Source: an archaeon (GTDB lineage Archaea; Nanobdellota; Nanobdellia; Woesearchaeales; GW2011-AR15). Taken from it: a stretch of DNA of 57,057 nucleotides. Below are positions 17,039 to 53,626 of the stretch, piece by piece. Each line of letters starts with the position of its first letter. Position 1 is the stretch's first letter. The stretch is taken from NCBI GenBank assembly GCA_018671515.1, contig JABHHN010000072.1, positions 1-57,057 on the forward strand, given 5' to 3'. Below the pieces are notes generated by a model that was not told where the DNA came from, did not search any database, and was given only the letters and a program-made list of their open reading frames with translations. A program made the position numbers and the translations under genes.

Positions 17039-17908
17039 TCAATTTAATTCATTAATAATTTTAAACGTATCTTTATCAAATTTTGAGAATGCAAACCACT
17101 TTTTTCCTAAATCTTTAAGAGATGCTCCAATATGATATACTTCTTTATCATCAATAATTAAAAACCTATCATGAGATTTTGAAAATTTTTTAACAATTAT
17201 ATTTTCATACTGAGAATTATATTTATCTAAATCTAGTTTTAATTGTTTTGTAATATTTTTGGTATAAATTATAACAGATACATTTTTTTCTTTTTTGGTA
17301 AATAATGTTAAAACTGTATCATCAACATAATTATCAACAAGTACTATTGATTTTTTTGCAAATCTTATTTAATCAGAAATAAATTTGTATGCATCAAATA
17401 TTTGTCCATCAAAAAATATTCCTTTTTTTGGTTTTATTTCTTTGTTTTCTATTAGCTTAAAAATTTGTTCAAATTTACTGTCATGTTTCAATAATTTTTG
17501 TTCAACATTATCTATTCTTTGAAAAATTTGTGCATTTCTTTTTAAAATTTTTCTCATTATGATAAATGCTCTCATTATTTGGATATTTATTTCAATTGCT
17601 TTTTTACTTTTCAAAATTCCTGAAAGCATTGCTACTCCTTGTTCTGTAAAAACATAAGGTAAATATTTTCTGTGTATTCCTCTACCTTTTTCAAAGGTCG
17701 CAAATTGCGACCTTAAAGAATTATATTCAAAAGTTGTTAATTGAAACATAAAATCTTTTGGAAATCGTCGACTATTTCTTTTTACTTGCTCATTTAATCT
17801 TTTTGTTTTAACTTCATATAATTTAGATAAATCTCTATCAAGAATCACTTGTTTTCCTCTAATTGTATGAATTAGTGTATTAAAATTATTTTTTTCTAAA
17901 TTTACCAT
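17039..17908 (-). pseudogene. ORF6N (KilA-N-like) DNA-binding protein with PLD-like C-terminal domain, interrupted by TAA at 17369-17371
   Basis: IRGKQVILDRDLSKLY, LPYVFTEQGVAMLS; the same frame continues past the stop: IRFAKKSIVLVDNY...SHDRFLIIDDKEVYHIGASLKDLGKKWFAFSK. Confidence 0.85.
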
Positions 17909-17953
17909 GTTTATTATTATCAATTAAAATTGAGATATTATTGTATTTAAATA

Positions 17954-17977
17954 TAATCTGTGAGAAGTTGTCCAGTG
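17954..17977. repeat. 24-bp direct repeat, copy 1
   Basis: TAATCTGTGAGAAGTTGTCCAGTG, identical to 18384-18407. Confidence 0.95.
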
Positions 17978-18044
17978 ATTAGTTTAATTAAATATTATTA
18001 TATTAGAACTATTTATATATTACTAAGTATTACTAAATAATACG

Positions 18045-18302
18045 GTGGAAGCAATTAGTCTTAAATTAGATGATGGGTTTTTAGTAGATATAGAAAAAAC
18101 CATGAAGCAGCATAGATATACAACAAAAACAGAATTTATAAGAGAAGCAATCCGTGACAAAATAAAACAGTTAGAAAAAGAAGAGGCTTTACTTAAATTA
18201 GGAAAAATTTATGGTGCTTCAAAGAGAAAAACTACTGATGATAATCTTAAAAAAGCAAAAAAATTAGCATTTGAAGATTTAGAAAAAGAATTTAATCTTT
18301 GA
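18045..18302 (+). CDS. Ribbon-helix-helix protein, paralog of 13170-13436
   Basis: MEAISLKL...TKTEFIREAIRDKI; TATA box and TATTACT repeats upstream. Confidence 0.85.
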   Translation: MEAISLKLDDGFLVDIEKTMKQHRYTTKTEFIREAIRDKIKQLEKEEALLKLGKIYGASKRKTTDDNLKKAKKLAFEDLEKEFNL

Positions 18303-18384
18303 TGAAATATTCTGGAAGTTTAGCTTTTGTTATGTCTTTTAGTGAATCAAAATCATTATCTCTTGCTATTAATTGCATATCATT
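18292..18384 (-). pseudogene. C-terminal remnant of a PIN-domain gene
   Basis: NDMQLIARDNDFDSLKDITKAKLPEYFIKD aligns with NHKAIMISQDMHFLKDLNDITNTKKPEEIN of 13429-13854; same convergent overlap with an RHH gene. Confidence 0.7.
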
Positions 18385-18407
18385 AATCTGTGAGAAGTTG
18401 TCCAGTG
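18384..18407. repeat. 24-bp direct repeat, copy 2
   Basis: Identical to 17954-17977; coincides with the PIN truncation point. Confidence 0.95.
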
Positions 18408-18697
18408 TTAGATTATGTATAAATATTAAGAATACACATACATTATTCTAATTCATAAATAAATTCATCTTAACAAAAAAACTGAAAACTATATTTTAAT
18501 TTAGTATAGATTAAATTCATTATTTCAAAAACCATATTTACCAATCCTTATATGCAATTTTCTAAATCCTTTTTAATACAATTATCTTAATTATATTTTA
18601 GTAGACGAGAGGGGCTTTTATTGATGAAAAAGGAAATTTATAGAGAGTACCGAGAGGTATGCTCTATAAATATAATGCAAAAAAGAGGTGTGAAAAA

Positions 18698-18805
18698 ATG
18701 AATGAAGACAAATGTGAAATAGTATGTGATGAAATAAATAGTTTTTTGAGTTTTGAAAATAAAAAATGGATAGAAAAATCAAAATTTGTTAAATTACTAG
18801 AATGA
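18698..18805 (+). CDS. 35-aa hypothetical microprotein, coupled to a 25-aa ORF at 18624-18701
   Basis: SD AGAGGTG, ATGA overlap; MNEDKCEIVCDEINSFLSFENKKWIEKSKFVKLLE. Confidence 0.35.
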   Translation: MNEDKCEIVCDEINSFLSFENKKWIEKSKFVKLLE

Positions 18806-18993
18806 ATATTTATTTTTATTTTATTTAAATTTCTTTTTAAGAACTTTAATTGAATTATTAGTTCAATTAATATTTTAAATGTAGACGTATTTACTAATTA
18901 TTGGGGTCTGATTTAAATGAAATACAAATTAAAAAAACAATCACCAACAATCACTTTACTATTGGCTACTAAAATAATCGAGAGGTGTTTAAT

Positions 18994-19437
18994 ATGAGAA
19001 CATGGATATTTCAAGGAAATCCAGATGATTTTCCTATTTATGAATATATAAAGGGTTGTGATGAAATTACTTGGTTAGTTAACAAGTATGAAGATAAAAT
19101 TAAGGAAGGAGATGAAGTATATATCTGGAAGGGCGCAGGTAAAGAAAAAGGATCTGCAGGAATTATTGCAAAAGGAATAATATTATGCAATCCTAAATTA
19201 ATTGAAACAGATTTAGATGGACCATATCAATGGACATATCCAAGAAAATTAAAAGAGGAATTAAGGGTTAGAATTAAATTAATTGATAAAAGATTAAATC
19301 CTGCAAATAGGGTATCAAGAGAAGAATTTGAAGGAGATTTAGATTTAATGAATCATGCCATTATCTCAGGTTACCAAGGAATTAATTTCAAATTAAAAGA
19401 TGTTCAAGTTGAAAGATTAAATGAGTTGTGGAATTGA
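18994..19437 (+). CDS. EVE (PUA-like) domain protein
   Basis: TWIFQGNP, IKEGDEVYIW, GIIAKG, QGINF; SD GAGGTG. Confidence 0.85.
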   Translation: MRTWIFQGNPDDFPIYEYIKGCDEITWLVNKYEDKIKEGDEVYIWKGAGKEKGSAGIIAKGIILCNPKLIETDLDGPYQWTYPRKLKEELRVRIKLIDKRLNPANRVSREEFEGDLDLMNHAIISGYQGINFKLKDVQVERLNELWN

Positions 19438-19449
19438 ATATAGAATGAA

Positions 19450-19470
19450 AAAAATAAACATTTAAATATA
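19450..19470 (+). promoter_or_regulatory. Archaeal promoter P1 (BRE/TATA) for the his leader
   Basis: A-rich tract plus TTTAAATA at 19461, 32 bp before ATG 19493 (leaderless geometry like the RHH genes). Confidence 0.55.
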
Positions 19471-19492: not shown

Positions 19493-19546
19493 ATGAGAGC
19501 AAACAAAGACGATAGTCGTGATTGTATTCATTGTCGGACAAACTAG
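19493..19546 (+). CDS. His-operon leader peptide uORF1 MRANKDDSRDCIHCRTN
   Basis: 17 codons, single His codon (CAT 19529) within GAT TGT ATT CAT TGT, a motif shared with uORF2. Confidence 0.6.
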   Translation: MRANKDDSRDCIHCRTN

Positions 19547-19574
19547 TCCAGATTTTAGTAGTTCTAACTCTCAA

Positions 19575-19590
19575 GATAAATTTATAAAAA
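19575..19590 (+). promoter_or_regulatory. Probable tRNA-His promoter P2
   Basis: TTTATAAA at 19581, 48 bp before the tRNA. Confidence 0.5.
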
Positions 19591-19628
19591 TTTCACAAAG
19601 TAATTGTATTTCTCAAGATCAAATATAT

Positions 19629-19721
19629 GGCTGCGGTAGTTCAATGGTAGAATCCAGGACTGTGGAAACCAAAAACGGTTTCAGAAATCCTGGGACGCGA
19701 GTTCGATTCCCGCCTGCGGCC
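19629..19721 (+). tRNA. tRNA-His(GUG) with a 21-nt intron (19666-19686) at position 37/38
   Basis: Acceptor GCTGCGG/CTGCGGC, encoded G-1 and C73; anticodon stem CAGGA/TCCTG with GTG at 19662-19664; T-loop TTCGATT; near-canonical bulge-helix-bulge (CTG/CAG, AACC/GGTT); CCA not encoded. Confidence 0.95.
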
Positions 19722-19783
19722 CTTCTTAAAACAGAAGGCTCAAACAACATTTATTCGAGTGAAAGCGAGAATAATATACAAGC

Positions 19784-19839
19784 GCAGCGAAAAGTTTTTT
19801 CAAAAAATAATGAAAAAGCTCTACCTGCAACTCTTTTTT
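19784..19839 (+). terminator. Hairpin plus T-tracts between tRNA-His and hisG
   Basis: GCAG..AGTTTTTTCA/TGAAAAAGCT..CTGC stem followed by TTTTTT at 19834-19839. Confidence 0.45.
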
Positions 19840-19889
19840 CAAACAATAGCAATAACACCAACAAACAAACAACTGGAGGTTCTTTTAAC

Positions 19890-19943
19890 ATGGAAAGACT
19901 GGCAATAAGCAGTGATTGTATTCACTGTGGTACCAAAGAATAG
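19890..19943 (+). CDS. His-operon leader peptide uORF2 MERLAISSDCIHCGTKE, overlapping hisG out of frame
   Basis: Strong SD GGAGGT 9 nt before the ATG; single His codon CAC at 19923. Confidence 0.65.
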   Translation: MERLAISSDCIHCGTKE

Positions 19944-20487
19944 TGGATTACGTAGATATAGAGACATTGCAGTACAGAACTTTGGTCTGCAGAACAATGA
20001 AAAATTAGAAGTAAGGGGAGAAGATGTCCCTTTCTGGGTTGAATCCCTAATCAAAAAAGGAAAGAAAGCTATTGGCTTAACAGGTCAGGATCTATTTCGT
20101 GAATATACATTAGAAAACTACAATACCCAATTAAAGACTCTTAAGATTGTAGGTTGGGATGATGATAAAGCATTGTTTAGAAAACCTACATTATGTTTAT
20201 TAGGTCCAAATAAAAAAGATCTAAATACAATTCCAAGAAGCCAGACAGTATGTATTTCTAAAAAGTATAAAACATTAGCAAAAAAATATCTTAATTTGCT
20301 TGAGACTAAAGGATATACTTTTCAAAAGATATATGTAAGTGGTTCTACAGAAAGCAGTTATCAAGTAGGTATTGCAGATTTAGTTATTGATATTGTATAT
20401 TCAGGTAAATCAATTAATGAATTAGGCTTGAGCATATATGAAAAAATATTCTATTCAAATTTTGTAATAATAGGTGGTAAGCAATGA
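19912..20487 (+). CDS. hisG: ATP phosphoribosyltransferase, short divergent form; true start uncertain (GTG without SD, or entry by +1 frameshift from uORF2)
   Basis: VVPKNSGL, VRGEDVP, GLTGQDL, SGSTE, GIADLVIDIVYSGKS; first gene of the his operon. Confidence 0.88.
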   Translation: MIVFTVVPKNSGLRRYRDIAVQNFGLQNNEKLEVRGEDVPFWVESLIKKGKKAIGLTGQDLFREYTLENYNTQLKTLKIVGWDDDKALFRKPTLCLLGPNKKDLNTIPRSQTVCISKKYKTLAKKYLNLLETKGYTFQKIYVSGSTESSYQVGIADLVIDIVYSGKSINELGLSIYEKIFYSNFVIIGGKQ

Positions 20488-21776
20488 ATGTCAGAATACT
20501 AAATTATGATAAAGATAAAGAGGAAATTGAAAAGGTAAAACAAAGATCATCTATTGATCAGACACAGGTAGAAGATAAAGTAAAGGTAATCCTAAATAAT
20601 GTAAAAGAAAATGGAAATAAAGCACTAATTGATTATGCAAAATTATTTGACAAAGTAGAATTAGATGAAGAAGATTTGATTGTAACAAAAGAACAAATAA
20701 AAGAAGCATATACTAAATTAGAACCTAATAAAATTATTGCAATCAAAAAAGCATTATCAAATATCACAAGATTTGCACAACTTCAAAAACCAAAACCATT
20801 CCTAGAAGAAATTGCACCTGGTGTAAAATGCGGTACACTAATTAAACCAATTGAAAAAGTAGGATGCTACATCCCTGGTGGAAATTATCCTTTACCTTCA
20901 ACAACTTTAATGACTGTTGGACCAGCAAAAGTTGCAGGTGTAAAAGAAATAATTGTTTCAACTCCTCCTCAAAAAAACGGAGGAGCTAATCCAGCAACAA
21001 TTGTTGCAGCAGATATTGCAGGTGCAACAAAGATAGTTATTTCAGGGGGAGCACAGGCAATTGCTGCAATGGCGTATGGAACTAGAACAATACCTAAAGT
21101 AAATAAGATTGTAGGCCCAGGAAATATTTATGTAACTGCAGCAAAAAAATTATTATATGGTGAAGTAGGAATAGATATGCCTGCAGGACCAAGTGAAGTA
21201 GTAATTTTAGCATCATCTGATTCAAATCCAAAATATATCGCTTCCGATATGTTAGCACAAGCAGAACACGATGTTGTTGCATGCGGATTATTATTTACTG
21301 ATTCAATGGAATTAGCTAATAAAGTAAAACAGGAAATAATTATCCAGACAGAAAAATTAGCATCAAAAGAAATCATAAAAAAATCATTTGAGAATTATAG
21401 CTGTATTGTTTTAGTAAAAACAGTCACTGACGTAATTGATTTTTGTAATGATTTTGCACCAGAACACTTAGAAATAATTGGTTATGATGAATCAATATTA
21501 GATAAGATAACAAATGCAGGTTCAATATTTTTTGGAGAATATTCTGTTGAAGCTGCAGGAGATTATTGCTCAGGAACAAACCACGTAATCCCAACAGGTG
21601 GATTTTCAAAAGTAAGAGGAGGATTATCAGTATATGACTTTTTGAAAATGCCAACAATACAAAAATTATCAAGACAGGGATTAGAATCATTAAAAGACAC
21701 GATTACAACGCTAGCTGAAATGGAAAGTTTACCAGCACACGCAAATTCAGCAAAGATTAGATTTGAAGGTGAATAA
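20484..21776 (+). CDS. hisD: Histidinol dehydrogenase
   Basis: YIPGG, GGAQAIAAMAYG, GPGNIYV, AGPSE, QAEHD, APEHL, GTNHV. Confidence 0.98.
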   Translation: MNVRILNYDKDKEEIEKVKQRSSIDQTQVEDKVKVILNNVKENGNKALIDYAKLFDKVELDEEDLIVTKEQIKEAYTKLEPNKIIAIKKALSNITRFAQLQKPKPFLEEIAPGVKCGTLIKPIEKVGCYIPGGNYPLPSTTLMTVGPAKVAGVKEIIVSTPPQKNGGANPATIVAADIAGATKIVISGGAQAIAAMAYGTRTIPKVNKIVGPGNIYVTAAKKLLYGEVGIDMPAGPSEVVILASSDSNPKYIASDMLAQAEHDVVACGLLFTDSMELANKVKQEIIIQTEKLASKEIIKKSFENYSCIVLVKTVTDVIDFCNDFAPEHLEIIGYDESILDKITNAGSIFFGEYSVEAAGDYCSGTNHVIPTGGFSKVRGGLSVYDFLKMPTIQKLSRQGLESLKDTITTLAEMESLPAHANSAKIRFEGE

Positions 21777-21777
21777 T

Positions 21778-22824
21778 ATGCAACCAAAAGAATCAGTAAG
21801 AAATATGGCACCATATAATCCTCCTACTTCATCAAGGAGTGATTTTATTAGATTGGACTTCAATGAAAACACATCAGGATGTTCACCTAAAGTATTACAG
21901 GCATTAAGAACTATCACAGAAAAGGAATTTTGCATGTATCCAGAATATAATGAATTAAAAAATGACATTGCAAAATTAAATGATATTGATAAAAATAAAA
22001 TCATCCCTACAAACGCAGGAGATGAAGGAATAATGCTTGTGATGAATACTTTCATTGAAAAAGGAGATGAAATATTATTGCCTACTCCAACATTTGCAAT
22101 GTTCAAATTCTATGCACAATTAAATGATGCAGATATCAAAGAAGTACAATACAATGAAAACCTATTGTTTCCGATAGATAATCTACTAAATAAAATTAAT
22201 GAAAAAACAAAGATGATAATTTTAGTGAATCCAAATAATCCAACTGGAACATCAATTAAAAGAGATGATATAATCAGAGTTTTGGAAAAGGCAAAAGATT
22301 CAATTGTATTTTTGGATGAAGCATATTATGATTTCACAAAAAATACATGCATTGATCTAATTGATAAATACCAGAATTTAGTGATATTAAGATCATTTTC
22401 AAAAGCATTTGGTCTTGGTGGATTAAGACTTGGATATTTGATATCAAATAAAGAAAACATCAAGATATTTCAGAAAGTAAATTCACCTTATAGTATTTCA
22501 TTTATTGCAAATAAAGTACTAAAGGCTGCAATAGAAGATTTTGATTATGTGGATAATTATGTTTCACAAATTATGAAAAATAAAGAATTCTTATATAATG
22601 AATTTGAAAAGATGAATATCAAATATTACAAAGGGGATGCTAATTTTTTCTTAGCAGATTTTGGTGAAAGCTATAAGATAATATATGATAAACTTAAAGA
22701 AAGAGGAATACTTCTTAGAGATAGGAATAGTTATGTCAAAAATACTCTCAGGATTACTGTAGGTACAAAGAAGCAATGCGAATTATTGATAAAGGAGTTG
22801 AATGAAATATGGATGAAGAGATAG
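21778..22824 (+). CDS. hisC: Histidinol-phosphate aminotransferase
   Basis: LDFNEN, NPNNPTG, DEAY, RSFSKAFGLGGLRLGY; SD AGGTGA. Confidence 0.96.
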   Translation: MQPKESVRNMAPYNPPTSSRSDFIRLDFNENTSGCSPKVLQALRTITEKEFCMYPEYNELKNDIAKLNDIDKNKIIPTNAGDEGIMLVMNTFIEKGDEILLPTPTFAMFKFYAQLNDADIKEVQYNENLLFPIDNLLNKINEKTKMIILVNPNNPTGTSIKRDDIIRVLEKAKDSIVFLDEAYYDFTKNTCIDLIDKYQNLVILRSFSKAFGLGGLRLGYLISNKENIKIFQKVNSPYSISFIANKVLKAAIEDFDYVDNYVSQIMKNKEFLYNEFEKMNIKYYKGDANFFLADFGESYKIIYDKLKERGILLRDRNSYVKNTLRITVGTKKQCELLIKELNEIWMKR

Positions 22825-23477
22825 ATACGATTATATTTGACATGGACGGGGTTTTAGTTGATGAATCAAAATCATATAGACTTGCAATAAAAAAAACTGC
22901 TGAGTTTTTTCTTGATAATAAAAAAGAAATTTCAATGGATATGATTGAATCATACAAGGAAAGAGGTGGTCTCAATAATGATTGGGATTGCACAGAAGCT
23001 ATCCTAAAAGATAATGGTGCAGATATTGATAAAGAAAAAATCATCGAAAAATTTGATGATATATATATCAATGAAACAATTAAATCTGAAACATTGATTA
23101 TCAGACGAGAAATTCTTGAAGAGCTTTCTAAAATATATAAGTTAGGAATTGTTACAGGAAGACCAAAACGTGATGCTAATTTGGCAATATTCAATTTTAA
23201 TCTTGCTAGATATTTTAATACATATATTACAATGGAAGATGTAGAAAATCAAAAACCATCACCAGATGGAATTATAAAATGTATGAAAAGACTTGGCTCC
23301 AAAAAGGCAATATATTTTGGGGACACTATTGATGATATGAGAGCTGCAAAATCTGCAGGAATAATTGGTATTGGAGTTATGCCACTTGTTTTTTCAGGAA
23401 AATTAAAAAATTTGCTTATTGAAAATGGAGCATCAAATGTACTTGATAATATAAATGAAATTGTGGAGGTTTTATAA
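22809..23477 (+). CDS. HAD-family hydrolase, probable histidinol-phosphate phosphatase
   Basis: FDMDGVLVD, GGLNNDWD, VTGRP, KPSP, GDTIDD; sits between hisC and hisB. Confidence 0.85.
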   Translation: MDEEIDTIIFDMDGVLVDESKSYRLAIKKTAEFFLDNKKEISMDMIESYKERGGLNNDWDCTEAILKDNGADIDKEKIIEKFDDIYINETIKSETLIIRREILEELSKIYKLGIVTGRPKRDANLAIFNFNLARYFNTYITMEDVENQKPSPDGIIKCMKRLGSKKAIYFGDTIDDMRAAKSAGIIGIGVMPLVFSGKLKNLLIENGASNVLDNINEIVEVL

Positions 23478-24061
23478 TGAGAAAATCAAGAATTACAAGA
23501 AAGACAAATGAGACTGATATAAAAATAAAATTAGATGTTGATGGAACAGGGAAATCAAAGATAAATACACCAATTGGATTTTTCAATCACATGTTAGAGG
23601 CATTTTCAAAACATGGACTTTTTGATCTCGAGATAGATGTCAAAGGAGACATAGAAGTTGATCAGCACCACACAGTTGAAGATATAGGAATTGCACTAGG
23701 TAATGCATTTTTAGATGCATTAGATGACAAAAAAGGGATAAACAGATCAGGTTATTTTGTATATCCAATGGATGAAGCACTAGCAGTTGTTGCAATTGAT
23801 TTATCAGGAAGACCTTATCTACAATATGATGCAGAATTCAAGAGAAGATATTGTGGTGAGCTTGATACTGATTTACTTCATGATTTTTTTGAAGCTTTTG
23901 CAGTAAATCTAAAGGCAAATGTTGTTGTAAGAATGCCTTATGGAAGAAGTGACCACCACAAGATTGAAGCAATCTTTAAAGCATTTGCAAAAGCAATGAA
24001 GATGGCATGTGAAAAAGATGATAGAATAAAAGGCGTTTTGAGTACGAAGGGCGTTATATAA
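23477..24061 (+). CDS. hisB: Imidazoleglycerol-phosphate dehydratase
   Basis: FFNHML, DQHHTVED, PMDEA, DHHKIEAIFKA, STKG. Confidence 0.98.
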   Translation: MRKSRITRKTNETDIKIKLDVDGTGKSKINTPIGFFNHMLEAFSKHGLFDLEIDVKGDIEVDQHHTVEDIGIALGNAFLDALDDKKGINRSGYFVYPMDEALAVVAIDLSGRPYLQYDAEFKRRYCGELDTDLLHDFFEAFAVNLKANVVVRMPYGRSDHHKIEAIFKAFAKAMKMACEKDDRIKGVLSTKGVI

Positions 24062-24124
24062 GTTTCAATGATGAAATATTTATTTCTTTTTTTTTGAAAT
24101 AAATATTCAGGCTTCGCCTTCATT

Positions 24125-24151
24125 ATAGCAAGCCTTTGGCTTGCAATTGTG
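24125..24151 (+). repeat. REP-like palindrome, family TAGCAAG (copy 1)
   Basis: ATAGCAAGCC-TTT-GGCTTGCAATTGTG; related copies at 34801, 47922, 50240. Confidence 0.85.
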
Positions 24152-24310
24152 GATAGTGAAGTGTTAAAGTTAGAATAACTTTGACAATACGAATGAAATG
24201 AGTTATCTATACACTATGATGAAGAAAGAAGATGAAGTATTCTTTCCTGACATGTTGAAAAAAAGAAAATTCAAAATTAACAAAAAAAAAATTAAATGGA
24301 GATATAAAAA

Positions 24311-24916
24311 ATGAGAATTGCAATCATCGATTATGGTGGGGGGAATATTGGAAGTGTGAAGAATGCACTAGATTATTTAGGAGTAGATTCAATAATTACA
24401 GACAATCCTGATGAAATAATAAATGCAGATAAGATGATACTTCCAGGTCAAGGTAGATTTGGAGATGTGATGAATAAATTAAATGAAAAAAACCTGATCA
24501 AAACAATACTTGAAGAAATAAATAATAAAAAACCATATTTAGGAATATGCATAGGATTGCAGATACTTTTTGAATCAGGTGAAGAAGATCCAGAAATAAA
24601 AGGATTGAATCTGATAAAAGGAACTGTTCCTAAATTCAAGATTGAACAAAAAGTACCACAAATAGGATGGAATTCAATTACTAAAATGAAGTATTCAAAA
24701 TTACTAAATGGAATTAATAATTTAGATTTTTTCTATTTCGTACACTCATATTATTGCATAACAGATGATAAAGAATCAATATTAACCAAAACAGATTATG
24801 GAATTAATTTTGTTAGTGCAATAGAAAAAGATAATATTTATGCAACACAGTTCCACCCAGAAAAATCAGGAAAATCAGGATTAAAATTATTAAAAAACTT
24901 TTGTGAGGTAATCTAA
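24311..24916 (+). CDS. hisH: Imidazole glycerol phosphate synthase, glutaminase subunit
   Basis: [32 protein letters not shown]. Confidence 0.98.
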
Positions 24917-24917
24917 A

Positions 24918-25673
24918 ATGCTTACAAAAAGAATTATACCGTGTCTTGATGTAAAAAATGGACGTGTAGTAAAAGGAACGAAATTCAAGAATTTAGTAGA
25001 CATAGGTGATCCTGTAGAATTAGCTATAAAATATTATAATGAAGGTGCAGATGAATTATGTTTTTTAGATATTACTGCATCCATTGAAAAAAGAAAAACA
25101 ATGATTGAAATGGTAAAAAAAGTTGCAGATAATATTTTTATACCTTTCACAGTAGGTGGTGGAATAAAAACCATTGAAGATATAAGACTGCTCTTAAAAA
25201 ACGGAGCAGATAAAGTTACTTTTTGTACAGAGGCAATAACAAATCCAGATATAATAAAAGAGGCATCGGATAAATTTGGTTCACAATGTATTGTAATTTC
25301 AGTTGATGTAAAAAGAAATGGAAAAGGATGGGAACCATATATTTATGGTGGAAAAAAAGAGACTGGATTGGATGCATTAGAATTTGCAAAAAAATGTGAA
25401 AAATTGGGTGCAGGTGAAATATTATTGAACTCTTTAGACACAGATGGGATGAAACAAGGATATGATTTAGAAATAACAAAACAAATTTCAGAATCATTGA
25501 ACATTCCAGTAATAGCTAGTAGCGGTGCAGGAACACTAGAACAGATATATGAAGCATTCACAAAAGGAAAAGCTGACGCTGCTTTAGCGGCGTCAATATT
25601 TCACTATAACACTTATTCAATAAAACAAGTAAAAGATTATTTAAAAAATAAAGGAGTTGATGTAAGATTATAA
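24918..25673 (+). CDS. hisF: Imidazole glycerol phosphate synthase, cyclase subunit
   Basis: [36 protein letters not shown]. Confidence 0.98.
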
Positions 25674-25725
25674 CGGAAAAAATTGGAAAATTTTTTAGTT
25701 TTCAGAGTGGAGCAGAGGCGGAACG

Positions 25726-26976
25726 ATGATAATCCCAAGCATAGATATACTAAACGGACGAGCTGTAAAGCTTGTAAAAGGAGATCCAAATAATAAGAAA
25801 TTTGAGACAAATGCATTAGAGCTAGCTCAAAGTTTTTCAATATTTCCAGAAATAAATCTCATAGATTTAGATGCGGCATTAGGCACAGGAAATAATATTG
25901 AACTAATAAGAAAAATATCAAAAATATGCACATGCAATGTTGGCGGAGGAATAAGAACAACAAAAATAGCATATGATTTACTAAAGGCAGGTGCAAATAA
26001 AATTATTATTGGAACAAAGGCTGATGTTGAATTCCTAAAACAATTACCTAAAGAAAAAATCATAATTGCAATTGATTCACGGAAAGGAAAAATTGTTGAC
26101 AAAGGCTGGACAAATGAAATAGATGAAACAACCATTGATAGAGCAAATAGATTAAAAAATTATTGCAATTCCTTCCTTTACACATATGTCGACAAAGAAG
26201 GAACACTAGAAGATATTGATGAAAATACAGTAAATGAATTAAAAAAAATCACAAAAAACAAAATTCAATATGCTGGAGGAATTTCTAGCAAAGACCAAAT
26301 TATAAAATTAGAATCACTTGGAGTTGACGCAGTTGTAGGTATGGCTTATTATGAAAATAAAATAGATATATATGAAACATTTGTTGATCTACTAAACTTC
26401 AAAAAAAGCATGGGACTAATCCCTACAATTGTAAAAAACACAAATGGACAAATACTGATGCTTGCATATAGCAATAGAGAATCTGTAATAAAATCAATAA
26501 AGGAAAGAAAAGGAATCTATTTTTCAAGAAGTAGACAAGAACTCTGGGAAAAAGGACTCACTTCTGGAAATACACAGGAACTAAAAAATATAAAAGTAGA
26601 TTGTGATAGAGATACATTGATTTACAAAGTATTGCAAAAAAATGTTGCATGCCACACAGGAGCATATACTTGCTTCGAAGATGAAGATTTCAACATGGAA
26701 TCATTATATGAAATTATTGAATCAAAAATAAGTGAAAGTAATTCATTTACAGATAAAGTATATAATGATGAGACGATGTTAAAAGAAAAGATAATTGAAG
26801 AGGCAGATGAAGTAGTTAATTTTAAGAATAAAGATAACTTAACCTGGGAAATAGCAGATTTATTATATTTTATATCAATACTTATGAAAAAGAATGGTAT
26901 TGATTACAAAGATATAAATAATGAATTAAAAATCAGGAATCTGATGAAAAAAACAATCAATAATACAAAACTTTGA
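25726..26976 (+). CDS. hisA: HisA-HisI-HisE trifunctional fusion
   Basis: IIPSIDI, IDLDAA, VGGGIR (HisA); FSRSRQELWEKGLTSGN, DCDRD, ACHTG (HisI); KIIEEADE, WEIADLLY (HisE). Confidence 0.92.
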   Translation: MIIPSIDILNGRAVKLVKGDPNNKKFETNALELAQSFSIFPEINLIDLDAALGTGNNIELIRKISKICTCNVGGGIRTTKIAYDLLKAGANKIIIGTKADVEFLKQLPKEKIIIAIDSRKGKIVDKGWTNEIDETTIDRANRLKNYCNSFLYTYVDKEGTLEDIDENTVNELKKITKNKIQYAGGISSKDQIIKLESLGVDAVVGMAYYENKIDIYETFVDLLNFKKSMGLIPTIVKNTNGQILMLAYSNRESVIKSIKERKGIYFSRSRQELWEKGLTSGNTQELKNIKVDCDRDTLIYKVLQKNVACHTGAYTCFEDEDFNMESLYEIIESKISESNSFTDKVYNDETMLKEKIIEEADEVVNFKNKDNLTWEIADLLYFISILMKKNGIDYKDINNELKIRNLMKKTINNTKL

Positions 26977-26986
26977 GGCACAAAAA

Positions 26987-28102
26987 ATGATAAACCTATC
27001 TGAGCAGAGAGTAATTGAAGATACATTCTTCAAAGCAAATATGTCATACTATAAACCAAGTCTTTATTTTCATTTTGCAAACTACTTCCATGAAGAGCAA
27101 GAATACACTGAAAATACTGATATCAAATTAAAGCATTTCCTTAAAGGAGATAAGAATATGGCATTCAATAAGGTCTTAAAAAAAGATCTTAAATTGATGC
27201 TTAAGGAGATAAAAACAACTCCAAAACAGTTTGATGAAAATTTATGGAAAGGTATGCTTCCAAAAATAAGAACTGAAATAAAAAAAACATTAGGACTTGC
27301 ATTTAAACCACGTTTATTATTTTTTGAAGATAGTTTTCCTCATGGTCTTATGAGTTTTGAAAAAAAAGGAGCTTCATCAGTTACAATTTTTGAAGGACAG
27401 GATGATGCAGGTGTATATTTCCTAAATAAAAGAGTATCATCTTTTTTTACACCTATACTTATGATTCATGAGCAGATACATTCATGTCTTTCACAAAACA
27501 AGACTAAAGATCAGATGTATATAGAATGGTTTGAAGAAGGACTTGCACAATGGTTTTCATTATTGATATATTATAATATCACAAAAAATATGGAAGTAAT
27601 AAAATTATACAAGGAAAGATGTTATATATTTAGCAAGGTAAAATCTGAGCATAATTTCACAAGAAGATATTTTGAATATATGAAAATAATGTCAAAATTA
27701 TATTTATCTGGTGGTCCAGAATTATTAGGTAAGATGCTTATGAAATATATGTCAAATGATAGGAAGAAAGTAAATTCATATCTTAATTATGATAAAGGAA
27801 TTAAGTATGTTCCTAAGAAAGATATAGAAAATTTTCTTGTGAATTTCACAGATGTATATGAACCTGAAAAATTACCACCAATTGAATATTTGATATTAAA
27901 GGAATCAGTAAAACCAAAAACAGTTGAAGAAATCTCAAAGAAAACAAAAGCACCAGTTGAACTTATTCAAAAGGCAGGTTTTGCACTTAGATTTAAAGGA
28001 ATGATTATAGTTACACAAGATAATAAGATTGAAATTAATTGGAGAAAAAAAGATCTTTTAGAAAAGGATCTCATAAAGCCATTTTGGCCACTAAAGAAAT
28101 AG
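26987..28102 (+). CDS. Hypothetical protein with HExxH zincin-like motif and possible C-terminal wHTH
   Basis: MIHEQIHS followed by WFEEGLAQW; C-terminal TVEEISKKT...LRFKGMI. Confidence 0.7.
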   Translation: MINLSEQRVIEDTFFKANMSYYKPSLYFHFANYFHEEQEYTENTDIKLKHFLKGDKNMAFNKVLKKDLKLMLKEIKTTPKQFDENLWKGMLPKIRTEIKKTLGLAFKPRLLFFEDSFPHGLMSFEKKGASSVTIFEGQDDAGVYFLNKRVSSFFTPILMIHEQIHSCLSQNKTKDQMYIEWFEEGLAQWFSLLIYYNITKNMEVIKLYKERCYIFSKVKSEHNFTRRYFEYMKIMSKLYLSGGPELLGKMLMKYMSNDRKKVNSYLNYDKGIKYVPKKDIENFLVNFTDVYEPEKLPPIEYLILKESVKPKTVEEISKKTKAPVELIQKAGFALRFKGMIIVTQDNKIEINWRKKDLLEKDLIKPFWPLKK

Positions 28103-28111
28103 GTGATATTC

Positions 28112-29416
28112 ATGGATAAAAAATTTAAATTACAATCAGCAAAAGGAGTAAGGGACTTTCCACCTCAAGAAAAAATACTTAGAGACAGAATTTTAAATAC
28201 AATAAAAGAAGTCTTTGAATTATATGGGTTTAATCCAATTGAACTTCCAATTCTTGAGCGATATGATACACTGGCTGCAAAGTTTACTGCTGGTGAAGAA
28301 TCAGATGCATTAAAAGAAATATTTGTTACACAAGATAATGGGAAAAGAAAATTAGGACTTAGATTTGATTTGACTGTTCCATTTTCAAGATACATAGGAC
28401 TTAACCCTGATGTAAAAATGCCTTTTAAAAAATATATCACAGGACAGGTATTTAGAGATGGTCCTATGAAAAAAGGAAGATATCGAGAATTTACTCAGTT
28501 TGATCCAGATATTGTAGGATGTGCAGATGTAATTGCTGATGCAGAAATTATGTCAATTACAGAAGAAGTTTTTAAGAGATTTGGTTTTGATGTAGAAATT
28601 GAATTTAACACAAGAAAATTACTAAATGGAATTTTGGAAGATCTAAAAGTTTCAGATGAACAAAAAATGAGTGCAATAATTTCTATTGATAAATTCAAAA
28701 AAATTGGTGAGAAAGGAGTAAGAAAAGAATTATTAGAAAAAGGAATTGATGAAGATAAGATATCTAAATTGTTTGTTTATCTTAAACCCGGAAAAACAAA
28801 TGAAGAGACTTATCAAAATATTAAAAAATTAATTAAATCTGATATTTGTTTGGAAGGATTAAAAGAAATAGAAGACCTTCTGGCATATATCAAAGAATAT
28901 GACTTGAAACATGTAACATTTTTGCCTAGTCTTGCACGTGGTCTTGCATATTATACAGGTCCAGTATATGAAGCATTCCTAAAAGATTCTACAATTACAT
29001 CATCTGCAGCAGGTGGCGGTAGATATGATGAAATGATTGGGAAATTCTTAGGTGGAAAAAGAGTTATACCTGCAACAGGAATTTCATTTGGTATTGAAGT
29101 AATTGTTGAAGCATTAAAAGAAAAAGAAAAACTTGATCAAAAAACAGTGACATCAGTTTATGTCATTCCAATAAAGACAAGAAAAGAGACAATTAAAATT
29201 GTTCAGAAATTAAGGAAGTCTGGAATAAAGACAGACATGGATTTAATGACTAGGGGAATTAGTAAGAATTTACAATATGCAAATACCTATGGAATTCCTT
29301 ATGTTATTTTTGTTGGTCAAAGAGAACTTGATGAAGGTAAGTTCAAGTTGAGAGACATGAAATCAGGTGAGGAAGAAATGCTTGAATTGGATGATATAAT
29401 TAAGAAGTTGAAATAG
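28112..29416 (+). CDS. hisS: Histidine-tRNA ligase
   Basis: KGVRDF, LRFDLTVP, GRYREFTQ, ARGLAYYTG, GGGRYD, C-terminal anticodon-binding domain. Confidence 0.97.
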   Translation: MDKKFKLQSAKGVRDFPPQEKILRDRILNTIKEVFELYGFNPIELPILERYDTLAAKFTAGEESDALKEIFVTQDNGKRKLGLRFDLTVPFSRYIGLNPDVKMPFKKYITGQVFRDGPMKKGRYREFTQFDPDIVGCADVIADAEIMSITEEVFKRFGFDVEIEFNTRKLLNGILEDLKVSDEQKMSAIISIDKFKKIGEKGVRKELLEKGIDEDKISKLFVYLKPGKTNEETYQNIKKLIKSDICLEGLKEIEDLLAYIKEYDLKHVTFLPSLARGLAYYTGPVYEAFLKDSTITSSAAGGGRYDEMIGKFLGGKRVIPATGISFGIEVIVEALKEKEKLDQKTVTSVYVIPIKTRKETIKIVQKLRKSGIKTDMDLMTRGISKNLQYANTYGIPYVIFVGQRELDEGKFKLRDMKSGEEEMLELDDIIKKLK

Positions 29417-53245: not shown

Positions 53246-53578
53246 ATGAAATTAACAGTCATATCTATAATCATTCTTACAATTCTATTTACCTCTTGTA
53301 CTAATCAATTCATTGATTCTGAAGAAAAGGCAATAGAATTAATAAAACAAAAATTTCCTGAGTTTAGAGATTATCCCTCAGATGAATTTGCAGGAAGATC
53401 AATAGAAACACAGACAACTGCAGAAGGATATTATTTAGGTTTTATAATTTATGGAAGCGGAGTTCCTATTGCTGATGCAACATGTTTTTTTGTTGATAAA
53501 AAAGGAAATATTAAACAAGATAAATATCAACCAAAAGAATTAATAAATGAAGAAATTGATTTAGTAACTTGTTCTTAA
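53246..53578 (+). CDS. Putative small lipoprotein
   Basis: Signal peptide ending FTSC. Confidence 0.7.
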   Translation: MKLTVISIIILTILFTSCTNQFIDSEEKAIELIKQKFPEFRDYPSDEFAGRSIETQTTAEGYYLGFIIYGSGVPIADATCFFVDKKGNIKQDKYQPKELINEEIDLVTCS

Positions 53579-53626
53579 ATTGATTTTTAATACTATAATG
53601 TCATAATTAATATTCTATAAATTCTC

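What the first reader, a model, noticed from the sequence alone, without database searches (positions are those of the whole stretch)
19493..19943. Two 17-codon leader ORFs share GTGATTGTATTCAYTGT and differ only at the His wobble base
Seen: 16 of 17 nt identical at 19518 and 19912 with unrelated flanks. The difference is CAT versus CAC, both His; His is codon 13 and 12, and the stop follows 5-6 codons later. The only strong SD (GGAGGT 19875) serves uORF2, not hisG's GTG. A TAA at 19906 limits entry into the hisG frame to 19909-19943. tRNA-Ile on AUU could re-pair on UUC at two of three positions. Alternatives: the motif folds as GUGA-UUGUAU-UCAY (7-bp stem at site 2) hiding a GUG start, or it is a DNA operator. 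A His-less degenerate copy (GTAATTGTATTTC) lies at 19600.
Basis: partly seen in the sequence, partly recalled or inferred. Interest (0 to 1): 0.85.

Follow-up and report, generated by a model that had tools for sequence, protein, structure and literature searches.

The report
Histidine-sensing frameshift switch in hisG
The two repeats are copies of a short signal that appears to make ribosomes slip forward one base at a single histidine codon, so that this archaeon makes the first enzyme of histidine synthesis only when charged histidine tRNA is scarce, a control not found in the papers searched.

Summary
The 17-nt repeat at 19518 and 19912 is real, and both 17-codon ORFs exist.

Comparison with 60 related DPANN-archaeal hisG loci changes the reading. 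"uORF2" (SD GGAGGT, ATG 19890) is the true N-terminus of HisG, and a +1 ribosomal slip at AUU-CAC (19920-19925) is needed to enter the hisG frame.

- 42 of 61 loci have no in-frame ATG for hisG, and 6 have no ATG, GTG or TTG at all.
- Orthologues without the His codon are in frame, and their N-termini equal the predicted trans-frame product.
- Wobble variation switches frame exactly at the His codon.
- The P-site codon is NUU in 41 of 42 sites.

At uORF1 the +1 frame stays open for 139 codons, runs through the tRNA-His gene and joins the uORF2 frame. This chain recurs in relatives.

The same genome carries the same cassette with a proline codon (AUU-CCU) at the start of proB, so the sensor codon matches the pathway.

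Best reading: a hungry-codon +1 frameshift switch. It is inferred from comparison only, and I found no report of it in print.

The parts
19461..19468 (+). TTTAAATA, a TATA-box-like element about 25 nt before the uORF1 ATG. It implies a leaderless or near-leaderless transcript.
   Evidence: Read. The same element sits at the same distance before uORF1 in most of the 30 relatives' uORF1s printed. The promoter function is inferred.
19493..19546 (+). uORF1, a 17-codon leader ORF: MRANKDDSRDCIHCRTN*.
   Evidence: Homologous short ORFs with [GSA][DEG]C[ILRF]H and a stop 2-9 codons after His are seen in relatives.
19526..19531 (+). Shift site 1: P-site AUU (19526-19528) and A-site His codon CAU (19529-19531).
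   Evidence: The +1 frame from here is open for 137 codons after the His codon, against 18 in the +2 frame.
19527..19943 (+). +1 frame of uORF1. It is 139 sense codons long, runs through the degenerate copy (QSNCIS) and the whole tRNA-His gene, and joins the uORF2 frame.
   Evidence: translation; ORF 19518-19943. None of 2000 shuffles of the 356-nt segment was stop-free in this frame.
19600..19612 (+). Degenerate, His-less cassette copy (GTAATTGTATTTC). It reads S-N-C-I-S in the +1 frame of uORF1.
   Evidence: In L067 the equivalent second copy is still a His site (GECIH) reached only by the first shift.
19629..19721 (+). tRNA-His gene. It has an encoded G-1 at 19629, anticodon GTG at 19662-19664 and a 21-nt intron at about 19666-19686.
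   Evidence: Rfam RF00005, 46.7 bits, 19630-19721. nhmmer with a tRNA-His HMM gives E 2.6e-15. Anticodon and intron were read. A second copy with identical exons lies at G000:C117.
19795..19839 (+). Two T6 tracts (19795-19800 and 19834-19839) inside the +1 ORF, between the tRNA and the SD. They may be archaeal oligo-T termination sites.
   Evidence: Read. The function is inferred only and was not tested.
19875..19880 (+). Shine-Dalgarno GGAGGT, 9 nt before ATG 19890.
   Evidence: A GGAGG-like SD lies 5-10 nt before the uORF2 ATG in nearly all relatives that have one.
19890..19922 (+). Zero-frame part of hisG: MERLAISSDCI (start codon to P-site codon).
   Evidence: In-frame orthologues carry the same ...DCI / ...DYI N-terminus.
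19920..19925 (+). Shift site 2: P-site AUU (19920-19922) and A-site His codon CAC (19923-19925). C19923 is the base skipped.
   Evidence: Of 42 such sites, P is ATT in 28, CTT in 11, and TTT, GTT and CTC in 1 each. A is CAT in 36 and CAC in 6.
19926..19943 (+). Zero-frame tail of uORF2 (CGTKE) and its stop TAG at 19941-19943. This is the product when His is decoded normally.
   Evidence: In relatives the zero-frame stop follows 3-13 codons after His in most loci.
19924..20487 (+). hisG in the +1 frame (TVVPKNSGL...). The predicted full product P0002 is 198 aa.
   Evidence: translation with CACT read as ACT. Pfam HisG 70.6 bits. The hisG stop overlaps the hisD ATG at 20484.

Best explanation
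The 17-nt repeat is a portable +1 programmed-frameshift cassette, about G(A/G)U-UGY-NUU-CAY-U, whose A-site codon is a single histidine codon.

Copy 2 lies inside the real 5' end of hisG. Ribosomes start at the SD-served ATG 19890 and make MERLAISSDCI.
- If His-tRNA(His) is plentiful, they read CAC and stop at 19941 after a 17-residue peptide, and no HisG is made.
- If the A site stays empty, peptidyl-tRNA(Ile) slips from AUU to UUC. Decoding then continues as TVVPKNSGL..., which is HisG, and by the ATGA overlap on to hisD and the rest of the operon.

Copy 1 does the same in a leaderless 17-codon ORF. The slip opens a 139-codon frame that carries ribosomes through the tRNA-His gene into the uORF2 frame.

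Shown by comparison: the frame break, its position at the His codon, the NUU rule, the open +1 frames, and the codon swap to Pro at proB.

Inferred: that the slip is ribosomal, that its rate rises when charged tRNA-His falls, and what translation through the tRNA achieves. I suggest it keeps transcription coupled past the T-tracts, or blocks excision of the tRNA so that the his mRNA stays intact.
For: 1. Start codons. Among 61 loci (the window plus L015-L074), 42 have no in-frame ATG between the upstream stop and the conserved P of VPKNS, and 6 have no ATG, GTG or TTG. A GGAGG-type SD serves the ATG of the frame one base 5'.

2. In-frame orthologues. They match the predicted trans-frame product:
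- L056 METPALAKDCIIVVPNNRSL against L025 MVSTSDCI|IVVPNNKSL.
- L040 ..NCDYIIVPKNSGL against L049 MEAKSCDYI|IVPKNSGL.
- L039 ..LIDCKDCTVILPKNSGL against L059 MASPLIDCSDCL|ILAPKNSGL.
The shifted form is the in-frame form plus one base.

3. Column entropy over 40 distinct sites. 3' of the His codon the hisG-frame third positions vary by about 1.4-2.0 bits. 5' of it, hisG third positions -9, -6 and 0 are invariant or nearly so. The variation at -4 (T27/C12/A1) and +2 (T34/C6) is synonymous only in the uORF frame.

4. Codons at the site. P-site is NUU in 41 of 42 overlap sites. A-site is CAY in 42 of 42 overlap sites and in 10 of 10 distal sites picked by hand's candidates; at the 28 upstream sites His was part of the search motif. 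Among upstream sites, which are free of hisG coding constraint, Ile is ATT in 11 of 11 and Leu is CTT in 7 of 8 (the one TTA site is a weak motif match).

5. Open +1 frames. At 42 upstream motif sites the +1 frame is open for a median 54.5 codons against 10 for +2, and +1 exceeds +2 at 38 of 42. Between the last upstream site and the hisG start, the +1 frame has no stop in 18 of 25 loci, the zero frame in 0 of 25 and the +2 frame in 1 of 25.

6. Where the +1 ORFs end. They end at the uORF2 stop or overlap the ATG of uORF2 or hisG (TAGATG, ATGA, ATGGTAG, ATGTTAA). L042 has no ATG between the tRNA and hisG.

7. Codon swap. G000:C44 has SD-ATG MKTEKLGGCIPCEESTK* with GGT TGT ATT CCT TGT. Its +1 frame is proB (TIGR01027, 219.7 bits), which has no in-frame ATG and lies between proS and proA. 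4 of 29 ProB loci examined carry this form: L088, L089, L110 and L111, from four families.

8. Phylogeny. In-frame forms are scattered singly among shift forms on a HisG tree.

9. Literature. The Atkins 2016 review says of starvation-specific trans-frame products from hungry codons that 'no examples are known' (passage seen).
Against: - There are no expression, proteomic or kinetic data. Everything rests on comparative sequence.
- In the window itself a GTG (19912) lies in the hisG frame, as in about three quarters of the overlap sites (column 10 is G in 32 of 41), so direct initiation there is not excluded.
- 6 of the 28 upstream sites have CGC, CGG or CGA in the P site, where re-pairing in +1 is poor.
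- 7 of 25 loci do not keep the +1 frame open. Most of these are weak motif matches, but L035 is a good site with 3 stops.
- 9 of 61 loci have an ordinary in-frame hisG start, and 4 of those (L027, L040, L062, L066) show no recognisable upstream site.
- A stimulator (an internal SD-like GGUGAU or a downstream structure) could not be established. The 16S 3' end is missing from the assembly, and the 19722-19960 fold has z -1.23.
- A metagenome scan for the Pro cassette gave 0 proB among 80 loci, so the Pro case rests on 4 loci.
- The loci are relatives of one another, so the p-values overstate.
Confidence: 0.7

Rival explanations
1. There is no frameshift. hisG starts at GTG 19912 (or a near-cognate codon in relatives), and uORF2 is an overlapping regulatory leader ORF. 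Its translation, stalling at the His codon, or termination followed by re-initiation tunes hisG initiation.
For: A GTG lies at the right place in the window and in about three quarters of the overlap sites (column 10-12 counts). The uORF2 stop lies 2-13 codons downstream, so back-scanning re-initiation is conceivable. The same genome is reported to use leader ORFs for aromatic pathways (earlier scan notes e1-2782881 and e1-2782886, unchecked).
Against: The GTG is replaced by CTG, CGG, AGG or GCG in several lineages, and 6 of 61 loci have no ATG, GTG or TTG. The SD lies about 32 nt from the GTG but 9 nt from the uORF2 ATG. In-frame orthologues show that the uORF2 residues ...DCI belong to HisG. 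hisG-frame third positions are frozen 5' of the His codon. A ribosome stalled at the His codon would cover the GTG, giving the wrong regulatory sign (inference).
Confidence: 0.12
2. The +1 frameshift is real but constitutive. It only sets a low fixed HisG (and ProB) level, and the His or Pro codon is not a sensor.
For: Many programmed frameshifts give fixed ratios (general knowledge; review passages). No data on responsiveness exist here.
Against: The A-site codon is CAY in 42 of 42 overlap and 10 of 10 distal hisG-linked sites, and CCT in 4 of 4 proB sites. If only a leading C were needed for the slip onto UUC, any of 16 codons would do. The same cassette precedes the first enzyme of exactly the pathway that makes the A-site amino acid, in two pathways.
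Confidence: 0.1
3. The repeat acts as RNA structure or as a DNA operator. Either a hairpin CAGUGA/UCACUG hides the GUG or the His codon, or a protein binds the 17-mer at both places.
For: The six-pair hairpin forms in the predicted MFE and centroid of 19722-19960. 84.1% of cells are paired across 41 sites, and pair 9-24 shows AU 19, GC 7 and GU 4.
Against: The paired fraction barely exceeds column shuffles (82.2%; 35 of 500 shuffles were as high). The Gly and Cys codons of the motif vary at synonymous positions (GGT/GGC/GGA/GGG; TGT/TGC). Neither idea explains the frame break, the in-frame orthologues or the open +1 frames. No His_leader or T-box match was found in the window at Rfam gathering scores.
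Confidence: 0.04
4. The two copies are a scar. The hisG 5' end was duplicated when the tRNA-His segment was inserted, and copy 1 is a decaying remnant without function.
For: Two direct repeats flank a tRNA gene. A third, degenerate copy lies at 19600. A second tRNA-His with identical exons exists elsewhere in the genome.
Against: uORF1-type ORFs with their own TATA-like box, conserved length and His position occur in lineages with and without the tRNA. Their +1 frames are kept open against expectation.
Confidence: 0.03

Closest known systems
prfB (release factor 2) autoregulatory +1 frameshift of bacteria
   Same: A short zero-frame ORF with its own start. A P-site NUU codon (CUU in prfB, recalled). 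An A-site codon whose decoding rate reports the supply of the very factor that the pathway provides. A +1 slip yields the full-length product and closes a feedback loop. An SD-like element 3 nt 5' of the shift codon is typical of prfB (recalled; an abstract in the listing, PMC10798248, mentions the characteristic SD).
   Different: Here the A-site codon is a sense codon (His or Pro), read by an aminoacyl-tRNA rather than a stop read by a protein. The organisms are archaea. The sites are chained in series and run through a tRNA gene. An internal SD could not be verified.
Ty1 +1 frameshift (CUU-AGG-C) and Gallant's 'hungry codon' frameshifting in E. coli
   Same: A slow-to-decode sense codon in the A site lets the P-site tRNA slip +1 on an NUU-type codon (passages of PMC5009743 seen).
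   Different: Ty1 relies on a constitutively rare tRNA. E. coli hungry-codon shifts are errors induced by starvation. The review states that no natural starvation-specific trans-frame product is known. Here the codon is cognate to the pathway being controlled.
Enterobacterial his operon attenuator (hisL, Rfam RF00514)
   Same: A short leader ORF before hisG uses His codons to sense charged tRNA-His, and the output is his operon expression.
   Different: hisL has a run of His codons and works through terminator and antiterminator hairpins (recalled). Here there is a single His codon, no significant structure, no Rfam match, and the read-out is a change of reading frame.
Antizyme +1 frameshift (polyamine sensing) and archaeal fucA1 -1 frameshift (Saccharolobus solfataricus)
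   Same: Antizyme is a metabolite-responsive +1 shift that closes a feedback loop. fucA1 is the established programmed frameshift in an archaeal cellular gene (abstracts of PMC1616953 and PMC8037382 in the listing).
   Different: Antizyme senses polyamines at a stop codon in eukaryotes. fucA1 is a -1 shift with no known amino-acid sensing. According to the 2021 abstract, recoding in archaea was firmly shown only for stop-codon readthrough and that -1 shift.

Membership tests
Programmed +1 ribosomal frameshift with feedback (prfB / antizyme type) | Two overlapping frames. The downstream one lacks its own conserved start, and the upstream one has initiation signals. | tested here: met
   42 of 61 loci have no in-frame ATG and 6 have no start codon at all. 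An SD-ATG serves the upstream frame.
Programmed +1 ribosomal frameshift with feedback (prfB / antizyme type) | A conserved shift site whose P-site tRNA can re-pair in the +1 frame. | tested here: met
   NUU-C in 41 of 42 overlap sites, with ATT, CTT and TTT used exclusively at the good unconstrained upstream Ile, Leu and Phe sites. Exceptions are 6 of 28 upstream sites with CGN and 3 of 10 distal sites with GCC.
Programmed +1 ribosomal frameshift with feedback (prfB / antizyme type) | The trans-frame product is the functional protein. | tested here: met
   In-frame orthologues have N-termini equal to the predicted fusion. The frame of selective constraint switches at the His codon. No protein-level data exist.
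Programmed +1 ribosomal frameshift with feedback (prfB / antizyme type) | A stimulatory element (upstream SD-like sequence or downstream structure). | tested here: inconclusive
   GGUGAU or AGUGAU lies 3 nt 5' of the P-site codon in many sites but not all. The 16S 3' end is absent from the assembly. The fold is not significant.
Programmed +1 ribosomal frameshift with feedback (prfB / antizyme type) | Shift efficiency responds to the supply of the factor that decodes the A-site codon. | not testable with these tools
   Supported only indirectly: the A-site codon is His at hisG and Pro at proB.
Leader-peptide transcription attenuator (hisL, RF00514) | A run of cognate codons in a short leader ORF. 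| tested here: not met
   There is one His codon in uORF1 and one in uORF2, and one or two in relatives.
Leader-peptide transcription attenuator (hisL, RF00514) | Mutually exclusive terminator and antiterminator hairpins; match to the Rfam model. | tested here: not met
   The only Rfam match in the window at gathering score is the tRNA. The 19722-19960 fold has z -1.23. The segment between uORF1 and the tRNA was not folded.
T-box riboswitch (RF00230) | Stem I specifier loop and T-box sequence; match to the Rfam model. | tested here: not met
   No match at gathering score in the window or in 34 related loci.
tRNA-His | GUG anticodon, G-1 opposite C73, cloverleaf. | tested here: met
   Rfam tRNA 46.7 bits. 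nhmmer against an HMM of 21 intronless tRNA-His gives E 2.6e-15. G-1 at 19629, anticodon 19662-19664 and the discriminator C were read.

The most novel reading that the evidence does not exclude
DPANN archaea use a modular 'hungry-codon frameshift switch'. A roughly 15-nt cassette accepts any C-starting sensor codon (His at hisG, Pro at proB) and reads the charging level of that one tRNA. In the his leader the switch is wired in series, so frameshifted ribosomes translate straight through a tRNA-His gene. They thereby decide whether the primary transcript is cut up into tRNA-His or kept as his mRNA. That would be a translation-gated choice between making the tRNA and making its amino acid.
Probability: 0.3. 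Interest if true: 0.97.

Novelty: new variant of a known kind. Interest (0 to 1): 0.9.

Why it matters
If this is right, it would be the first natural case in which a starved sense codon is used as a programmed +1 frameshift signal to switch on the pathway that makes the missing amino acid. The standard review of recoding raises this possibility and states that no example is known.

It would also be a +1 programmed frameshift in archaeal cellular genes. Abstracts in the listing state that only one -1 case was firmly established there.

It would give uncultured, small-genome archaea an amino-acid sensor that needs no regulator protein and no RNA structure.

There is a practical consequence too. 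Gene callers will mis-start or truncate hisG and proB in these lineages, and metabolic reconstructions may score them as broken.

The cassette is short and seemingly portable, with a swappable sensor codon. That makes the idea directly testable in reporters and potentially useful as a synthetic amino-acid sensor.

Tried and rejected
- **Hairpin at the motif.** Pairs were counted on 41 sites. The result cannot be told from conserved columns, so it was not adopted.
- **Known RNA families.** His_leader and T-box had no Rfam match in the window or in 34 related loci. Rfam also missed the two-intron tRNA-His genes of L016, L017 and L021, which nhmmer found in pieces.
- **Structure between the tRNA and hisG.** The fold has z -1.23, so there is no support for SD masking.
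- **Anti-SD check.** Only positions 4-828 of the 16S rRNA are in the assembly, so the GGUGAU/16S pairing idea stays untested.
- **Expression.** One RNA-library contig covers 19440-19536 only. This says nothing about transcription or frames.
- **Order-wide scan for the cassette with any A-site codon.** It gave 64 matches in 55 of 401 genomes, against about 12 for the reversed control by my count. Among the 36 loci examined, only the CAY (hisG) matches had a short zero frame with a long +1 frame that could be assigned to a pathway gene. G000's own proB match (CCT) got no locus in that call and was read from L003/L088. L148 (CCT before a membrane ORF) is unclear. L135, L140 and L147 are chance hits.
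- **Metagenome scan for the Pro cassette.** None of the 80 has proB in the +1 frame. Only 4 have an SD-ATG in the cassette frame with a near stop. The pattern mostly hits hydrophobic N-termini read in the other frame, so the scan was uninformative.
- **Fourth genome match to the 17-mer (C46).** It lies in a histidine-kinase C-terminus and is chance.
- **Unknown 371-aa ORF.** It has no likeness to HisRS, so no support as HisZ.
- **Quadruplet decoding by tRNA-His.** The anticodon loop is a normal 7 nt, so this was not pursued.
- **-2 shift.** It would add a residue relative to the in-frame orthologues, so it is less likely.
- **Not used.** Structure and complex prediction, because neither would tell the two N-termini apart.
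Full report
**What is in the window**

- A 17-nt repeat lies at 19518 and 19912, differing only in CAT versus CAC.
- uORF1 is 19493-19546 (MRANKDDSRDCIHCRTN*).
- GGAGGT lies at 19875.
- uORF2 is 19890-19943 (MERLAISSDCIHCGTKE*).
- TAA at 19906 closes the hisG frame just upstream of GTG 19912.

The repeat occurs only twice at zero mismatches in the window and in the 1.88-Mb, 27% G+C genome.

It is a tRNA (Rfam, 19630-19721) with anticodon GTG, an encoded G-1 and a 21-nt intron, so it is tRNA-His. The ARAGORN tool missed it. With introns allowed, ARAGORN places the intron wrongly and calls it Tyr.

Downstream lie these genes:
- hisG, hisD and hisC
- a HAD phosphatase
- hisB, hisH and hisA
- a hisF-hisIE fusion
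- an unknown ORF
- histidyl-tRNA synthetase

Contigs from three other studies reproduce both sites without any difference.

**Relatives**

Six hisG loci from the same family and then 60 loci from DPANN MAGs were compared. The MAGs carry Woesearchaeota, Nanoarchaeota, Iainarchaeum, Aenigmatarchaeota and Pacearchaeota labels. With the window this makes 61 loci. Some are near-identical pairs (L032/L033, L050/L051, L025/L034).

The arrangement is conserved far beyond the window.
- 42 of 61 loci have an NUU-CAY site (one has CUC-CAU) 10 nt before the P codon of the conserved VPKNS (7 nt in L058). It lies in the frame one base 5' of hisG.
- Where that frame has an ATG, a GGAGG-type SD lies 5-10 nt before it in nearly all loci.
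- 42 of 61 loci have no in-frame ATG for hisG, and 6 have no ATG, GTG or TTG at all.
- The GTG at 19912 is a by-product of the Ser-Asp codons (AGU GAU). It becomes CUG, CGG, AGG or GCG where Ser or Asp is coded differently.

**uORF2 is the N-terminus of HisG**

Nine loci lack the shift site and have an ordinary in-frame ATG. Where their N-termini can be compared, they equal the product predicted for a +1 slip in their relatives.
- L056 METPALAKDCI-IVVPNNRSL against L025 MVSTSDCI|IVVPNNKSL.
- L040 ...NCDYI-IVPKNSGL against L049 MEAKSCDYI|IVPKNSGL.
- L018 MINTQDYI-IVVPKNTGL.
- L039 ...LIDCKDC-TVILPKNSGL against L059 MASPLIDCSDCL|ILAPKNSGL.

At the DNA level the shifted form is the in-frame form plus one base (ATT-C-ATT against ATC-ATT). 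A +1 slip therefore restores the length, whereas a -2 shift would add a residue.

On a HisG tree the in-frame forms sit singly among shifted forms (FastTree, midpoint root, supports not shown). This suggests an old shift site that was lost repeatedly.

Reading the window with CACT taken as ACT gives a 198-residue HisG, MERLAISSDCITVVPKNSGL....

**Where selection acts**

Column entropies were computed over 40 distinct sites.
- 3' of the His codon they show clean hisG-frame periodicity. Third positions carry 1.4-2.0 bits.
- 5' of it, the hisG-frame third positions -9, -6 and 0 are invariant or nearly so.
- What variation there is (TGT/TGC at -4, CAT/CAC at +2) is synonymous only in the uORF frame.
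- Position -1 is T in 39 of 40 sites, although ATC and ATA would also code Ile.

- P site: ATT 28, CTT 11, and TTT, GTT and CTC 1 each.
- A site: CAT 36, CAC 6.
- E site: TGY 33 of 42.
- At upstream sites, which are free of hisG coding constraint, Ile is always ATT (11), Leu is CTT (7, plus one weak TTA match) and Phe is TTT (2).

NUU codons are read by G34 tRNAs through a G-U wobble (established decoding rule, recalled). After a +1 slip onto UUC the wobble becomes a G-C pair. This gives a physical reason for the rule.

**The upstream copy and the chain through the tRNA**

uORF1-type ORFs start about 25-30 nt after a TTTAAATA-like box, which suggests leaderless mRNAs. They carry [GSA][DEG]C[ILRF]H and stop 2-9 codons after the His codon.

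Their conserved property is the +1 frame.
- At 42 motif sites it is open for a median 54.5 codons, against 10 in the +2 frame. It is the longer of the two at 38 of 42 sites.
- From the last upstream site to the hisG start, the +1 frame has no stop in 18 of 25 loci. The zero frame has none in 0 of 25 and the +2 frame in 1 of 25.
- Total stops in the three frames are 188 (zero), 55 (+1) and 113 (+2).
- For the window, none of 2000 shuffles is stop-free.

In the window this frame (19527-19943) reads through the degenerate copy (QSNCIS) and through the tRNA-His gene with its intron. It then enters uORF2 in frame.

In relatives it ends in one of three ways.
- It ends at the uORF2 stop.
- It overlaps the ATG of uORF2 or of an in-frame hisG: TAGATG in L015, ATGA in L018 and L037, ATGGTAG in L038 and L070, ATGTTAA in L039.
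- It is the hisG frame itself (L032, L033, L054, L055).

Some loci make the chain hard to avoid.
- L042 has no ATG between the tRNA and hisG.
- L046, L048, L050, L051, L053 and L071 have no ATG in the middle frame at all. There the only ATG is that of uORF1, and two slips in series are needed.
- More distant loci (L060, L064, L068, L069, L072) have one SD-ATG ORF with GCC-, GUU- or AUU-CAU-C some 20-29 codons before VPKNS.

A tRNA-His-like sequence lies upstream of hisG in 39 of 61 loci. G000 has a second, stand-alone tRNA-His with identical exons.

**The codon swap**

I scanned G000 for an SD-ATG short ORF overlapping a long +1 ORF. A second scan looked for TGY-NTT followed by any codon, with the same frame logic. 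The only convincing cases were the two his sites and one more, at C44:9041.
- It has GGAGGT, then ATG...GGT GGT TGT ATT CCT TGT (MKTEKLGGCIPCEESTK*).
- Its +1 frame is glutamate 5-kinase (proB) with no in-frame ATG.
- It lies between proS and proA.
- Its 17-mer differs from the hisG one at three positions, and the A-site codon is proline.

In 29 ProB loci of the order (39 of 201 genomes had ProB; L095 from the unpublished G150 was left out), 4 from four families have this form.
- The four loci are L088, L089, L110 and L111.
- Their P-site and A-site codons are ATT-CCT, TTT-CCT, CTT-CCT and ATT-CCT.
- The other 25 start in frame.

So the cassette precedes the first enzyme of two pathways, and each time the A-site codon is the pathway's end product. 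His and Pro codons both start with C, which a slip onto UUC requires.

**How it most likely works**

- Shown by comparison: the frame break, its exact place, the NUU rule, the open +1 frames and the pathway-matched sensor codon.
- Inferred: the shift is ribosomal. There is no homopolymer for polymerase slippage, and the tRNA-His anticodon loop is normal.
- Inferred: the shift becomes frequent when the A site waits for His-tRNA. HisG and the translationally coupled operon would then be made on demand.
- More speculative is the purpose of translating through the tRNA. It may keep ribosomes behind the polymerase across the two T6 tracts (19795, 19834). It may prevent excision of the tRNA, so that the his mRNA survives. 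Or it may deliver ribosomes to the hisG start by termination and re-initiation.

**Results against this reading, and tests that gave nothing**

- A GTG start cannot be excluded for the window itself.
- 6 of 28 upstream sites have CGN in the P site, and 3 of 10 distal sites have GCC.
- 7 of 25 loci break the +1 frame.
- 4 of 61 loci show nothing but an ordinary start.
- The motif hairpin cannot be told from conserved columns.
- No significant fold was found.
- No anti-SD check was possible.
- The RNA contig is uninformative.
- The order-wide cassette scan found only His and Pro cases, plus one unclear locus, L148.
- The metagenome scan for the Pro cassette returned only chance hits in 80 loci.
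- The loci are related to one another, so the p-values overstate.

**Comparison with what is known**

The logic is that of prfB and antizyme: the decoding rate of one A-site codon sets a +1 shift that feeds back on supply. The mechanics are those of Ty1 and of Gallant's hungry codons.

The Atkins 2016 review (PMC5009743, passages seen) says that natural starvation-specific trans-frame products from hungry codons are not known. Abstracts in the listing (PMC8037382, PMC1616953) say that in archaea only stop-codon readthrough and one -1 frameshift were firmly shown.

Five literature searches found no report of a hisG or proB frameshift. Supplements were closed and were not consulted.

Earlier notes of this scan are AI notes and not independent evidence.
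- One describes a similar His-codon +1 leader before an archaeal hisG (e1-5469571).
- One describes a +1 shift at a His codon in hisG of a Saccharibacteria genome (e1-3306793).
- One describes a tRNA-His abutting hisG in a CPR bacterium (e1-1107461).
- Two describe aromatic-codon leader ORFs in this same genome (e1-2782881, e1-2782886).
- None mentions the proB case.

**Verdict**

This is a new variant of programmed +1 frameshifting that acts as an amino-acid sensor, supported by strong comparative evidence but by no experiment.

Noticed in passing
G000:C44:9026-9860 (L003 1467-2301; L088): proS, then an SD-ATG mini-ORF MKTEKLGGCIPCEESTK* carrying the same cassette with a Pro codon (ATT CCT), then proB in the +1 frame without an in-frame ATG, then proA. 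The same form occurs in L089, L110 and L111.
   Followed up: yes
G000:C117:13726-13819: A second, stand-alone tRNA-His gene. Its exons are identical to the his-leader copy and its intron differs at two positions. It has unrelated AT-rich flanks and no cassette nearby.
   Followed up: partly
window 20484-29416: The his operon continues as hisD, hisC, a HAD-family hydrolase (22809-23477), hisB, hisH, hisA, a hisF-hisIE fusion (25726-26976), a 371-aa ORF with no Pfam match (26987-28102; no likeness to HisRS) and histidyl-tRNA synthetase (28103-29416). The operon therefore begins with tRNA-His and ends with HisRS. The 250-nt gap at 24061-24311 was not examined.
   Followed up: partly
L016 about 1290-1420, L017 about 1228-1420, L021 about 1308-1440: tRNA-His genes in his leaders with two introns, one of them in the T-arm region. 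Rfam at gathering score and ARAGORN miss them, and nhmmer finds them in pieces. The introns too are kept open in the +1 frame.
   Followed up: partly
L110 about 1390-1460, L111 about 690-750, L115 about 1440-1470: Pro-rich mini-ORFs ending ...LPPQ* or ...PCPPL* lie upstream of proB, followed by a CCCC...GGGG pairing. This may be a second, leader-peptide layer of proline control.
   Followed up: no
L148 (G185:C10), minus strand, around 53538-53589: SD-ATG MKTGHHQGPVDCIPRQ... with GAT TGT ATT CCT. Its +1 frame is a 208-codon membrane-protein ORF that also has an internal ATG. It is unclear whether this is another Pro switch or chance.
   Followed up: no
G000:C8, minus strand, around 31336: MRRCLHENRSLMFKNQT* with TGT CTT CAT G. 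Here the +1 frame begins with the ATG of a 282-codon ORF (MKIGVLCSRIRPEEKLL...), which by recall looks like a LysX/ArgX-type ATP-grasp ligase. Not examined.
   Followed up: no
window 17369-19437: Upstream of the his leader lie an ORF6N-domain ORF (17369-17923, minus strand) and a weak EVE-domain ORF (18985-19437; 20.2 bits, below the Pfam cut-off).
   Followed up: no
window 19722-19739: A six-pair hairpin, CUUCU.../...AGAAG, lies directly after the tRNA-His 3' end. It is present in the predicted MFE and centroid structures. Its role is unknown.
   Followed up: no
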